A stretch of DNA of 64,000 nucleotides, taken from the NCBI RefSeq assembly GCF_003790525.1, contig NZ_CP033636.1; one strand, given 5' to 3'. How positions within the stretch are numbered: the stretch's first letter is position 1; each line of letters begins with the position of its first letter. The position numbers were made by a program. The DNA is from Escherichia coli (GTDB lineage Bacteria > Pseudomonadota > Gammaproteobacteria > Enterobacterales > Enterobacteriaceae). Positions 12,001 through 15,000 of the stretch are shown here, piece by piece.

Positions 12001-15000
12001 GACAGGCGTTCACTGATCTTTTGACCAATACCCCATATTTCTCTGGTACTGATAAGGCCCAGGAGCTTCCTGATCCTGGCCTGATCAGTCAAAACTACAA
12101 CCCCGCCTGTAGCTGCCCATCGTTTGCTCGCATAGGTGCATAATTTAGCCAGGGTTTTGGTGCTTGAACACCCCACACCACAGGTAAGGGACAGATTATG
12201 AAGAAGTGTACTTCTGATCAACCGGCCGTAATCTTCATAATCTATTATCTTGTTCATGTTTTTCAATAACATGAAATTTTCATCTATGCTATATCGACTC
12301 GATTGAGGCGCGAAGCTTTCCAGCGTTTCATGGAAGCGATTTGAGTAGTCTTCATACAAAGTAAAGTTAGAGCTCCGGACTTCGATCTGGTGTTGCTGAA
12401 TCAAATCCCTGCACTTAAAAATTGGGGTCCCACGCTTAATACCAACGCTTTTAGCCAGTTTATTCATTGCAATGACGGACGAATCGTTATTGCTGGCTAT
12501 GATGAGCGGCTTTTTTGCCAGCTTGGGATCCATCGCACACTCAAATGCCGCATAGGCCCCGTTAATATCAACGTGCATGTACATGGCTAAACTGATTCAG
12601 TGCAAAGGTGACGACGCCCCATATCTCAAGGGATTCGGGATTTACACGTATCGGCTTATAGGCTGGATTAGAAGGCATCAAAAGCAGCTCAGGATACGTG
12701 TGTAAGATCTTTACCGTGAACTCTCCATCCACCAGCGCAACGACGATAGAGCCGTGTCGTGCCGTTAAAGACCGATCCACAACCAGAATAGCGCCATCAT
12801 TGATACCGGCATTGATCATACTGAGGCCCGCCGCCCTGACAAAGAAGGTTGAGGGGCGGTTACGGACTACATATTCATGCAAATTTAATTCATTATCTTC
12901 ATGCCCGGCGCACGGACTCATCACTCCACAGCTCAGTAAATCACTGAAAAAAGGTGCCATTTCGTAAGGCTTGTTGCTAATGTGCTCAAGGATAACAGAC
13001 ATAGCTACACTCGAATTCTCATACTGTATGTATAAACAGTATTGCGAGTTACAGAGAAAAGATCAAATCTCTCCGGTAACGCTATCGAGCCTGACGAAAA
13101 ATTAAGCTTTGTCACAAACACCAAAAACCATCTTTTACCGATAATGGCGAGCTGGCCTACGAAGAAGGTATACAAGCTAGGATGAAAGGATTCTGATGCC
13201 CCTCCCACCAAATTTTTTATCTCCTGAAGACCAGGCTGAGTACGATGCTTATATGTCAAGATTCAGCGAGATAAATCACTATTATGATTATCACACTGTC
13301 CCCGTGATTGACTGGTTCTTTAAACAAGCAACCGAGGCGTTGCATCACGAACTATGGATACCGGCCTGTACGAGCTTCCTGAACGGGATTGAAACATCAC
13401 TCATGGTTACGTTGAAGTCGCTGATGCTGAAACCAACAGTTAACGATCAGCATGCAGCTCCTGAGCTGGTGGACTTGGAGGGTATCTCCGTAATGAGTAA
13501 TGCCTTACTGAGAAAGGCCAAGCAGGAAGGGGTGCCGGTAGAATTACTTTCATTTCCAGCCGAGCAGGATATGTTGGTTAAGGTAGCAGCCGGGAGAACA
13601 CCTGAAGCAGAAATTGTCAGGCTGAGAAACAACCTATGCCATGGCAACATTCTGGAGTTTATCATGTCTGTTGATATCGGTACTTCAGGACCCATACGTA
13701 TTTTTACGCCTGAATGCTGTCGTGAACTGGCGCATGAACTTTCGTCCATTTCCAGGAATTGGGTGGTAGGTTTGCACAAGTACTGGGTCGACAACAATCT
13801 GATTTCCCCCTGAAGCTCCTTGAACCTTGCTTTCAGAAGCCAGGTGTATGAAACCCTATTGGATAATATTTAAAGCCAAAATATGGGGATCTCGTATTCG
13901 GTGACAGGCATGGTATAAATGATGTGTCTGAGCAACCATCATTGATAATCATGGAGTGAGTCATGAAATTAAAATACCTTCTGTTATGTGCAACTCTGTC
14001 TGTCGCCTTTACCTCCTCTGCGGTCCTTGCATCTGAAAACGGGAAAAAACCGATCCCGGGCAAATCAGATGTGATGGTTGCCGATATTTGTTTAAAACCT
14101 GAAATCCAAAGTGAAACCGATTATAAAAAAACGAAAGAACTGGTAAGGACTGAGTTTGAAGAAAACTTGCCTGTTGGATCTAAAATCAAAGAAAAAGACT
14201 TGAATGCCGTAATTGAAGCATTTGCTACTCGTAAAAGGGACACGCCGGAGCGAGCGGACCATTGCCAAGAAAACGTACGTGAAAGATACTGGGAAATGAA
14301 CCCGGTGAAAGATAAATAAAATACATTCACGTTGTATAATATAGAGGCTTCAATTCTGAAGCCTTTTTTATTTTCAGATTATTTTGATTCTGACAATAAT
14401 GAAATAAAATTGAGCATTATCGCTTAACACTGGATAAGAAAAAGAGCCATCTTTTATATTGGACAGGTTTGAATTTAAGGAATTTTGGATTCACAGTTTT
14501 CTGCGTTATTAGACGGCAAGGGCAATCTGGTATGATTCACCTAACACACGAATCTGGAAGGAAAAGTATATGGGTGACCTGGTCAGCAAAAATAGCATTG
14601 ACCGTTTAGAGCGATTTCATTCTTTGCTGGCGGGTCAGTACTGGACGTCCACTGACAGCATCCCTGAAGAGGGTATTGTGGCAGGGGATACACTGCTCAT
14701 TACGTCTTTGCGTGGCACTGTTGCAAATAGTCGGTGGTGATAAACTTATCATCCCCTTTTGCTGATGGAGCTGCACATGAACCCATTCAAAGGCCGGCAT
14801 TTTCAGCGTGACATCATTCTGTGGGCCGTACGCTGGTACTGCAAATACGGCATCAGTTACCGTGAGCTGCAGGAGATGCTGGCTGAACGCGGAGTGAATG
14901 TCGATCACTCCACGATTTACCGCTGGGTTCAGCGTTATGCGCCTGAAATGGAAAAACGGCTGCGCTGGTACTGGCGTAACCCTTCCGATCTTTGCCCGTG

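What the first reader, a model, noticed from the sequence alone, without database searches (positions are those of the whole stretch)
14570..14713. Left boundary of the resistance island: backbone gene truncated by IS26
A gene with a strong RBS is cut after 48 codons exactly at the IS26 terminal repeat, and the other side of the same IS26 truncates Tn21 tnpR. This marks the island junction at 14714; the right junction is probably the Tn3-family IR near 52391.
Basis: seen in the sequence. Interest (0 to 1): 0.25.

Follow-up and report, generated by a model that had tools for sequence, protein, structure and literature searches.

The report
IS26-cut stump of plasmid gene
The 144 bases are the leftover first 48 codons of a large, uncharacterised IncHI2 plasmid gene that ends against an IS26 insertion sequence at the left edge of the plasmid's antibiotic-resistance region, which is an ordinary and widely shared scar and not a new feature.

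Summary
An ATG at 14570, preceded by a GGAAGGAA ribosome-binding site, opens 48 codons that stop at 14713. A complete 820-bp IS26 (14714-15533) follows. Its other end abuts codons 1-52 of a Tn21-type tnpR on the minus strand.

The 48 codons are the true N-terminus of a 3,336-bp (1,111-aa) IncHI2 backbone gene. That gene is intact in R478-like plasmids and belongs to a conserved, unannotated protein family.

- This IS26 has no target-site duplication.
- The same junction is present in 316 PLSDB plasmids, with different DNA to its right. It is an old lineage marker.
- In the closest relatives the gene was already broken by a 3.8-kb deletion and a Tn1721 insertion, with an IS26 658 bp further right. 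An IS26 adjacent deletion from that state is my preferred origin.
- The Tn3-family inverted repeat is at 52107-52144, not 52391.
- The backbone to its right (52145-64000) is a different segment, inverted. In the nearest sequenced relative a second resistance region follows it, ending at another IS26 in an HNH gene.

Verdict: real, ordinary and of a known kind. Interest is low.

The parts
14343..14366 (+). Terminator-like hairpin with a T-run that closes the preceding backbone gene (13963-14319)
   Evidence: It shows that the remnant has its own upstream intergenic region (14320-14569).
14556..14563 (+). Shine-Dalgarno-like GGAAGGAA, with 8 nt between AGG and the ATG
   Evidence: Read directly from the sequence.
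14570..14713 (+). Codons 1-48 (nt 1-144) of the 3,336-bp, 1,111-aa IncHI2 backbone gene (WP_000502666.1 in pGENC284)
   Evidence: Identical to nt 1-144 of the gene in pQnrB4_020042.
14570..14740 (+). 56-codon chimeric ORF: 48 gene codons plus 8 codons read from the IS26 left end. RefSeq annotates it as a hypothetical protein in relatives.
   Evidence: (WP_152919720.1 in pSTM6-275).
14706..14713 (.). The 8 bp left of IS26 (CTTTGCGT). It is not repeated on the right of this IS26 or next to any other IS26 in the window.
   Evidence: The reciprocal junction is absent from PLSDB.
14714..15533 (+). Complete IS26 of the G184N allele (IS26-v1). Inverted repeats at 14714-14727 and 15520-15533; tnp26 at 14777-15481.
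   Evidence: It has three marker bases (459, 613, 614) that differ from the standard IS26 at the same junction in pSTM6-275.
15534..15541 (.). GGCGAAGC, one copy of the 8-bp duplication made when an IS26-v1 inserted into Tn21-type tnpR. The other copy sits left of a second IS26-v1 in relatives.
   Evidence: 39 PLSDB records have tnpR3'-GGCGAAGC|IS26 at 100% identity.
15534..15689 (-). Tn21-type tnpR, codons 1-52 of 186
   Evidence: There is 1 mismatch in 1,800 nt to the Tn21-type tnpR-res-urf2-intI1 module of pT16R-2.
16368..17381 (-). intI1 of the sul3-type class 1 integron (estX-psp-aadA2-cmlA1-aadA1-qacL ... sul3) that follows the tnpR stump
   Evidence: Annotation transferred from pNDM33-1, which is 99.97% identical over 15529-25756.
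52107..52144 (-). 38-bp Tn3-family terminal inverted repeat GGGGTCAGTTTGGATATCGAAAATTATTGTACGTTAAG. It ends the element whose tnpA is 49134-52121 and is the true right edge of the resistance DNA inside the window.
   Evidence: unique; 0 expected by chance; NF033527, 1129 bits.
52145..52329 (-). The first ~61 codons of another backbone gene (WP_000490638.1 family), cut at its 3' side by the Tn3-family repeat
   Evidence: alignment to the PIW95 IncHI2 plasmid; annotation.
52145..64000 (.). Backbone block (two hypothetical genes, DUF4942, DUF1173, dcm methyltransferase, thermonuclease and others). It is inverted relative to umuDC and the gene stump when compared with plasmids that keep the ancestral order.

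Best explanation
The feature is a fossil junction at the left edge of the IS26-rich multiresistance region of an IncHI2 plasmid. The plasmid is pNDM33-1-like but lacks the Tn3000-blaNDM-5 unit.

Shown:
- The 144 bp are codons 1-48 of a conserved 1,111-aa backbone gene of unknown function.
- They abut the left repeat of a complete IS26-v1.
- The junction has no target duplication.
- The junction is fixed in a large plasmid clade.
- The DNA on the right of this IS26 differs between clade members.

Inferred, about 55-60% likely: the junction was not made by IS26 jumping into an intact gene. In the ancestor, a 3,825-bp deletion had already fused codon 239 of the gene to a downstream gene. A Tn1721 had inserted 26 bp further on (TTTAA duplication), and an IS26 in the same orientation sat 19 bp inside the Tn1721 left repeat. 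That IS26 then attacked nt 137-144 of the stump in cis. This replicative intramolecular transposition in deletion mode removed the intervening 658 bp and left IS26 flush against codon 48 without a duplication.

Also inferred: the anchored IS26 later recombined with an IS26-v1 that had inserted into Tn21 tnpR, either by homologous or by Tnp26-targeted exchange. That exchange would have given this copy its v1 allele and its present right-hand neighbour, GGCGAAGC-tnpR5'-intI1. Inversions between oppositely oriented IS26 copies flipped the backbone block that now lies at 52145-64000.

The stump is non-functional. The cut falls inside the second beta-strand of the first predicted domain.
For: Gene identity and coding status:
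- The 3,336-bp ORF is intact in pGENC284.
- The search returned 371 homologues. The 120 best listed are 964-1,191 aa long and mostly cover 90-100% of the query, at 36-98% identity, across Proteobacteria.
- The N-terminus is conserved.
- Across the first 239 codons there are 13 synonymous and 4 non-synonymous codon differences between two plasmid lineages.

Junction:
- The flanks are CTTTGCGT and GGCGAAGC.
- 316 PLSDB records carry the junction, against 369 that keep nt 137-336.
- None has the reciprocal junction.

Intermediate states, on a backbone with 0-1 mismatches over 6.8 kb:
- The PIW95 type has ORF 1-719, then 26 nt, then Tn1721 IRL-mcp (51 records including the next type).
- The pQnrB4_020042 type has the same arrangement but with an IS26, in the same orientation, 19 bp inside IRL (7 records).
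- The Tn1721 TTTAA duplication is shared between pQnrB4_020042 and pNDM33-1. The window's lineage therefore descends from the Tn1721-bearing state.

IS26 adjacent deletions are active in this lineage. Relative to pNDM33-1, the window lacks 53 bp and 65 bp directly next to two other IS26-v1 copies.

The right-hand partner varies: delta-sul1 in pSTM6-275, a nested IS26 pair plus full tnpR in pNDM33-1, and tnpR codon 52 here. pSTM6-275 has the standard IS26 allele at the same junction.

The split duplication GGCGAAGC is documented.

Structure: the AF2 model places residues 41-50 in a beta-strand of the first domain.
Against: - The order of events is inferred from extant states and not from a dated phylogeny.
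- A direct insertion followed by loss of its right flank gives the same end product.
- The IS26 in pQnrB4_020042 is the standard allele, while the window's copy is v1. An extra exchange step is therefore needed for this window, though not for pSTM6-275.
- The exact three-part arrangement (stump, IS26, GGCGAAGC-tnpR5') was not found in one piece in PLSDB or in complete E. coli genomes. The window's own far boundary could not be read and is extrapolated from pNDM33-1.
Confidence: 0.58

Rival explanations
1. Direct copy-in insertion. An IS26 transposed into nt 137-144 of the gene, or of its 239-codon stump, and made a CTTTGCGT duplication. The right-hand copy and everything beyond it were later removed by recombination or deletion between this IS26 and another directly oriented IS26 further right.
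For: IS26 normally makes 8-bp duplications, and one copy in this window still has one (47631-48450, CTTCTGGT). The resistance region holds many directly oriented IS26 copies that could recombine. The end product would be indistinguishable from what is seen.
Against: No surviving example of the duplicated state or of the right-hand flank was found among 685 PLSDB records that carry this part of the gene. An IS26 in the right orientation just 658 bp away exists in sister plasmids with the same backbone, which makes a one-step adjacent deletion simpler.
Confidence: 0.3
2. Inversion-mode intramolecular transposition. The IS26-v1 sitting in Tn21 tnpR attacked nt 137-144 of the gene on the same plasmid in inverse orientation. 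In one step this created the junction stump|IS26|tnpR5' and inverted the backbone block now at 52145-64000.
For: The predicted left-hand product matches the window exactly: stump, IS26(+), GGCGAAGC-tnpR5', integron, then the inverted backbone. The junction IS26 is the v1 allele, like the tnpR copy.
Against: The junction occurs with the backbone block in either orientation. pSTM6-275 and NZ_CP043545.1 have the ancestral orientation; NZ_CP039170.1 and NZ_CP070297.1 have the window's orientation (strands). The junction also occurs with other right-hand partners and with the standard IS26 allele. The two IS26 copies that hold the split GGCGAAGC are in direct, not inverted, orientation in pNDM33-1. 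The predicted reciprocal junction is absent.
Confidence: 0.07
3. The 48-codon frame is a chance open frame in non-coding backbone DNA, and IS26 simply lies in an intergenic region.
For: The fragment alone has no Pfam hit.
Against: It is the start of an intact 1,111-codon ORF in related plasmids. Full-length homologues exist in many genera. The N-terminal residues are conserved and substitutions are mainly at third codon positions.
Confidence: 0.01

Closest known systems
IS26-bounded multiresistance regions of IncHI2 plasmids (pSTM6-275, PMC5923156; pNDM33-1, PMC8407110; pOYZ4/MRCP, PMC9019673)
   Same: The backbone is the same (0 mismatches in 6.8 kb to pSTM6-275). The stump|IS26 junction is identical. 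There are many IS26 and IS26-v1 copies, mostly without duplications. Split 8-bp repeats and IS26-linked inversions are described in those papers for other copies.
   Different: The passages I read (keyword hits only, not the full texts) do not mention this junction or the gene it destroys. The window combines the junction with a tnpR-codon-52 right flank, a combination not found in one piece in the collections searched. The window also lacks the Tn3000-blaNDM-5 unit of pNDM33-1 and has the empty ACTTT site.
IS26 adjacent deletion / translocatable-unit and targeted conservative reactions (Harmer and Hall model; He et al. 2015, replicative intramolecular transposition). Recalled from my own knowledge; related abstracts PMC7885326 and PMC7986276 were seen.
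   Same: An IS26 abuts foreign DNA without a duplication. Neighbours are exchanged at a fixed IS26. Directly oriented copies bracket resistance segments. Small losses occur flush with IS26 ends.
   Different: Nothing mechanistically different was detected. The event itself was not observed, only its product and plausible precursors.
IS26-v1 (Tnp26 G184N, reported to have higher cointegration activity; Pong et al. 2019 as cited in PMC9019673)
   Same: The junction copy and three other copies in the window encode N184 and share the three marker bases.
   Different: Activity was not measured here. The same junction carries the standard allele in pSTM6-275, so the allele is not tied to the junction.
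Tn21-subgroup tnpR interrupted by IS26 (for example pT16R-2, NZ_CP046718.1)
   Same: The same module (tnpA, tnpR::IS26-v1, res, urf2, intI1), the same orientation, and 1 mismatch in 1,800 nt to the right of the IS.
   Different: In pT16R-2 and about 20 other plasmids the insertion is 2 bp away (duplication CGGGCGAA) and both halves are still together. Here the duplication is GGCGAAGC and the two halves lie on different IS26 copies.

Membership tests
IS26 (IS6/IS26 family) | 820-bp element with perfect 14-bp terminal inverted repeats GGCACTGTTGCAAA | tested here: met
   14714-15533; the repeats were found at both ends.
IS26 (IS6/IS26 family) | A single 234-aa DDE transposase, Tnp26 | tested here: met
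   14777-15481; NF033587 IS6-family transposase, 278 bits against a cut-off of 125. Three base differences from standard IS26 give G184N.
IS26 (IS6/IS26 family) | 8-bp target-site duplication flanking a simple insertion | tested here: not met
   The flanks are CTTTGCGT and GGCGAAGC. This does not exclude IS26 identity. It shows that this copy is not in its original insertion context. The copy at 47631-48450 does have a duplication (CTTCTGGT).
Tn21-subgroup resolvase gene tnpR (truncated) | N-terminal serine-recombinase sequence contiguous with res, urf2/tnpM and the IRi-intI1 end of a class 1 integron | tested here: met
   52 codons MTGQRIGYIRVSTFDQ.... Downstream lie DUF3330/urf2 and intI1. 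There is 1 mismatch in 1,800 nt to the annotated module in pT16R-2. The 52-aa fragment alone gave no NCBIfam hit.
IncHI2 plasmid backbone | Near-identity and synteny with plasmids typed IncHI2A/MOBH/MPF_F | tested here: met
   Window 7900-14713 has 0-1 mismatches to three typed IncHI2 plasmids. 755 of 769 matching records are predicted to be conjugative. The replicon genes themselves are outside the region examined.
1,111-aa conserved hypothetical protein family (WP_000502666.1-like) | Alignment of the fragment to the N-terminus of full-length members | tested here: met
   98% identity to the IncHI2 protein and 44-81% to 18 more distant members, with nine invariant columns within residues 1-48.
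Discrete resistance island (one insertion with two junctions at one backbone point) | The right junction continues the backbone where the left junction stopped, in the same orientation | tested here: not met
   The rest of the gene is absent from the window and from pNDM33-1 60-160 kb. The backbone at 52145 is a distant block in the opposite orientation. A second resistance region follows in pNDM33-1.
   The only such repeat is at 52107-52144. Positions 52145 onward align to the IncHI2 backbone at 99.6%, so 52391 is backbone.

The most novel reading that the evidence does not exclude
The destroyed gene belongs to a widespread family of ~1,100-aa proteins that has no annotation and no recognised fold. 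In other plasmids its neighbours are orphan methyltransferases, ArdC, H-NS, KfrA and toxin-antitoxin genes. It could be an unrecognised plasmid establishment or anti-defence factor. Its repeated independent inactivation in the E. coli/Salmonella IncHI2 lineage would then reflect selection, not accident. The inactivating events seen are the IS26 at nt 144, the 3.8-kb deletion with Tn1721, and a Gram-positive-type element at nt 37.
Probability: 0.12. Interest if true: 0.45.

Novelty: already known. Interest (0 to 1): 0.1.

Why it matters
The junction has little importance as biology. It is one more IS26 scar at the edge of an IncHI2 multiresistance region.

It has practical value in three ways.
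- It is a precise, easily assayed lineage marker: stump nt 144 joined to the IS26 left repeat, present in 316 of roughly 770 PLSDB plasmids that carry this backbone region.
- It shows that the resistance region here is not a single island. It is two regions separated by an invertible backbone block, which matters for anyone who defines island boundaries or assembles such plasmids from short reads.
- It illustrates how a fixed IS26 serves as a docking point where right-hand cargo is swapped.

The intact gene's family is a small open question in its own right.

Tried and rejected
- I proposed that the junction and the backbone inversion arose together by inversion-mode IS26 transposition from tnpR (note). 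I rejected this after cross-tabulating probe strands (against 45). Orientation varies within both the nt-144 type and the pQnrB4_020042 type, while all six Tn1721-only plasmids sampled had the ancestral orientation.
- I searched for the reciprocal junction and found none.
- I looked for matching or reverse-complement 8-bp flanks among all IS26 copies in the window and in pNDM33-1 60-200 kb. Only GGCGAAGC pairs up, and it does so across two plasmids. The window holds IS26|GGCGAAGC-tnpR5'. pNDM33-1 holds tnpR3'-GGCGAAGC|IS26 at its far boundary but has a different left boundary, a nested IS26 pair plus a nearly full tnpR.
- I tried to find the window's exact source or an identical three-part junction. 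It is not in PLSDB or in complete E. coli genomes. pTB-nb4 (CP033636), named in PMC8407110 as the near-twin of pNDM33-1, is not held.
- A junction probe for IS26|tnpR5' was poorly designed. Intact tnpR reached 83% coverage, so its count is unusable.
- An Rfam scan of 13800-16400 found nothing credible.
- The paper on ST3-IncHI2 plasticity (PMC5913921) is not held.
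Full report
**Observation.** A terminator-like hairpin at 14343-14366 closes the preceding gene. 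GGAAGGAA lies at 14556-14563 and an ATG at 14570. There are 48 sense codons to 14713, and the IS26 left repeat GGCACTGTTGCAAA starts at 14714. The frame continues 8 codons into IS26, giving a 56-codon chimeric ORF that RefSeq annotates as a hypothetical protein in relatives. IS26 is complete: 820 bp, 14714-15533, with perfect 14-bp repeats, and tnp26 at 14777-15481 matches NF033587. On its right, on the minus strand, are codons 1-52 of a Tn21-type resolvase (15689 down to 15534). These are followed by urf2/tnpM and by intI1 of a sul3-type integron.

**What the 48 codons are.** Window 13900-14713 matches 769 PLSDB plasmids, nearly all large conjugative IncHI2 replicons of Escherichia, Salmonella and Enterobacter. 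In pGENC284 (R478-like) the frame continues to a 3,336-bp, 1,111-aa gene, WP_000502666.1, annotated as hypothetical. A database search returned 371 homologues, many of them full length, at 36-98% identity in Klebsiella, Providencia, Burkholderia, Bordetella, Ralstonia, Agrobacterium and others. The window's 48 residues align to their N-termini with nine invariant columns. Between two IncHI2 lineages, the first 239 codons differ by 13 synonymous and 4 non-synonymous codon changes.

The protein has no Pfam or NCBIfam domain. A confident AF2 model (pLDDT 81) has no informative PDB match. In other plasmids its neighbours are orphan methyltransferases, ArdC, H-NS, KfrA and toxin-antitoxin genes. 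The cut at residue 48 falls inside a predicted beta-strand (residues 41-50) of the first domain, so the stump cannot be functional.

**How common the junction is.** A probe of 72 nt of gene plus 27 nt of IS26 is fully matched in 316 PLSDB records. By comparison, 369 records keep gene nt 137-336. The junction therefore marks a large clade, which includes pSTM6-275 (typed IncHI2 subtype 3; PMC5923156) and pNDM33-1.

What lies to the right of this IS26 differs between members.
- pSTM6-275 has delta-sul1.
- pNDM33-1 has a nested inverted IS26 followed by a nearly full tnpR.
- The window has tnpR codon 52.

pSTM6-275 carries the standard IS26 allele at the junction, whereas the window carries the G184N (IS26-v1) allele. 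The left junction is therefore old and fixed, and the IS26 acts as a docking point where partners are exchanged.

**Not a simple insertion.** The 8 bp flanking this IS26 are CTTTGCGT and GGCGAAGC. No PLSDB record has IS26 followed by CTTTGCGTTACG..., the reciprocal junction expected after a copy-in insertion or an inversion. The rest of the gene is absent from the window and from pNDM33-1 60-160 kb.

GGCGAAGC belongs to tnpR. In pNDM33-1 a second IS26-v1 in the same orientation, about 94 kb away, has tnpA-tnpR3'-GGCGAAGC on its left and a truncated backbone HNH gene on its right. The arithmetic fits a single insertion: 156 + 413 nt equals 561 + 8. That tnpR3'|IS26 junction is in 39 PLSDB records and the IS26|HNH' junction is in 50. 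One IS26-v1 insertion into tnpR therefore now has its two flanks on two different IS26 copies. An independent insertion 2 bp away (duplication CGGGCGAA) is still intact in pT16R-2 and about 20 other plasmids.

**Precursor states.** Plasmids with an essentially identical backbone (0-1 mismatches in 6.8 kb) show that the gene was already dead.
- In the PIW95 plasmid and about 44 others, nt 719 is fused to a point 3,825 bp downstream (pGENC284 locus L003, 12545). Twenty-six bp later sits a Tn1721 left end with mcp.
- In pQnrB4_020042 and six others, an IS26 in the same orientation as the window's lies 19 bp inside that Tn1721 repeat.
- The other flank of the same Tn1721 insertion is present in pNDM33-1 just beyond the end of the window, with the matching 5-bp duplication TTTAA. 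The window's lineage therefore descends from the Tn1721-bearing state.

From the pQnrB4_020042 state, removing 658 bp (575 of the gene, the 26 nt, and 57 of Tn1721) flush with the IS26 left end gives the window's junction. This is the known IS26 adjacent-deletion reaction, and it leaves no duplication. The lineage demonstrably does this: relative to pNDM33-1, the window lacks 53 bp and 65 bp directly next to two other IS26-v1 copies. I rate this origin at about 0.58. Direct insertion followed by loss of the right flank rates about 0.3.

**The right junction.** The Tn3-family transposase gene is at 49134-52121 (NF033527). Its 38-bp terminal repeat is at 52107-52144 and is unique in the window. 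From 52145 the sequence aligns at 99.6% to the IncHI2 backbone, starting inside another backbone gene, of which only about 61 codons remain. Position 52391 lies between two backbone genes.

This backbone is not the continuation of the stump. In pGENC284 and the PIW95 plasmid the order is ter, hipBA, HNH, two hypothetical genes, DUF4942...dcm, further genes, the 1,111-aa gene, then umuDC. In the window, the block of two hypothetical genes plus DUF4942...dcm and beyond (52145-64000) is inverted relative to umuDC. The same inversion is seen in pNDM33-1, where it also holds relative to hipBA/ter. In pNDM33-1 the block runs on to the Tn1721 right end and a second resistance region (tetA, qnrS1, arr-2-cmlA5-blaOXA-10-aadA1-dfrA14, floR, Tn21 tnpA). 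That region ends at the IS26 in HNH.

The window equals pNDM33-1 without the 13.9-kb Tn3000-blaNDM-5 unit and has the empty ACTTT site. The same layout is therefore expected beyond the window, but it could not be read.

**The inversion is separate from the junction.** I compared the strand of the umuDC-side probe with the strand of a probe for the inverted block across records (against 45).
- Among nt-144 plasmids, two have the ancestral orientation (pSTM6-275, NZ_CP043545.1) and two have the window's (NZ_CP039170.1, NZ_CP070297.1).
- Among pQnrB4_020042-type plasmids, one has each orientation.
- All six Tn1721-only plasmids sampled have the ancestral orientation.

The block evidently flips, presumably between oppositely oriented IS26 copies on either side. 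The window has IS26 copies in both orientations. This rules out my interim idea that one inversion-mode transposition made both the junction and the inversion.

**Comparison with what is known.** Everything here fits published descriptions of IncHI2 multiresistance regions. These describe many IS26 and IS26-v1 copies, few duplications, split 8-bp repeats, inversion units and translocatable units (PMC5923156; PMC9019673; PMC8407110). The passages I read from those papers do not mention this particular junction or the gene it destroys, but the kind of feature is well known.

**Verdict.** The left edge and both truncations are right. The implied simple insertion and the right junction are wrong. 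The feature is already known in kind, and I score interest at about 0.1. The only mildly open question is the function of the 1,111-aa family and whether its repeated loss in this lineage was selected.

Noticed in passing
[not shown]
   Followed up: partly
L004 (CP123704.1, pFSIS11920112-1) 303-8000: In this Salmonella IncHI2 plasmid the same gene is split at nt 37/38 by a ~7.7-kb element. The element carries aac(6')-Ie/aph(2'')-Ia, a Mob/plasmid-recombination protein, TnpV, TnpW and a DUF4368 recombinase. This is a Gram-positive-type element in an enterobacterial plasmid.
   Followed up: no
window 47631-48450: This is the only IS26 in the window with an intact 8-bp target duplication (CTTCTGGT). 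It lies at the 3' end of, or just after, a Cu/Zn-efflux-like permease gene (46473-47606), next to arsR.
   Followed up: partly
window 14714, 26842, 38121, 41721, 42977, 47631 (IS26 starts): There are six complete IS26 copies. Four are the G184N IS26-v1 allele (14714, 26842, 42977, 47631) and two are standard (38121, 41721). Orientations are mixed: +, -, -, -, -, +.
   Followed up: yes
window 27662 and 43797: Relative to pNDM33-1, the window lacks 53 bp and 65 bp immediately next to two IS26-v1 copies. One loss is upstream of aac(3)-IVa and the other is in a Tn2 tnpR fragment. These are small IS26-adjacent deletions specific to this plasmid.
   Followed up: yes
window 37388-37394: This is the empty target site (ACTTT) of the 13.9-kb Tn3000-blaNDM-5 unit present in pNDM33-1. 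The window represents the NDM-free form.
   Followed up: yes
window 45384-52144: A Tn3-family element with tnpA at 49134-52121 and an unusual repeat, GGGGTCAGTTTGGATATCGAAAATTATTGTACGTTAAG. Only one repeat is present. Its left part (arsR, permease) is interrupted by IS26 and ends at an IS1 fragment (45384 to about 45999) that abuts the Tn2 right end at 45383. The element was not identified by name.
   Followed up: partly
window 53356-53360: The point where the PIW95 plasmid has a ~32-kb Tn7-like sil/pco transposon is unoccupied here. The pSTM6-275 paper describes a similar 32.4-kb Tn7-family sil/pco element with 5-bp direct repeats; I did not check its site.
   Followed up: partly
L017 (pT16R-2) 4501-5320 compared with window 15534 and pNDM33-1 165803: IS26-v1 has inserted into Tn21-type tnpR at least twice, 2 bp apart and in the same orientation. 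The duplications are CGGGCGAA and GGCGAAGC, which suggests a local hot spot.
   Followed up: partly
window 52145-64000, and the same block in 26 PLSDB plasmids: The orientation of this ~12-kb backbone block relative to umuDC differs between otherwise near-identical IncHI2 plasmids. The block is invertible.
   Followed up: partly
NZ_CP128610.1 55174-56757: In this relative, the tnpR3'-GGCGAAGC|IS26 junction and the gene-stump|IS26 junction lie only about 1.4 kb apart. They sit on two overlapping, oppositely oriented IS26 copies, giving a head-to-head IS26 structure like the nested pair at the left boundary of pNDM33-1.
   Followed up: no
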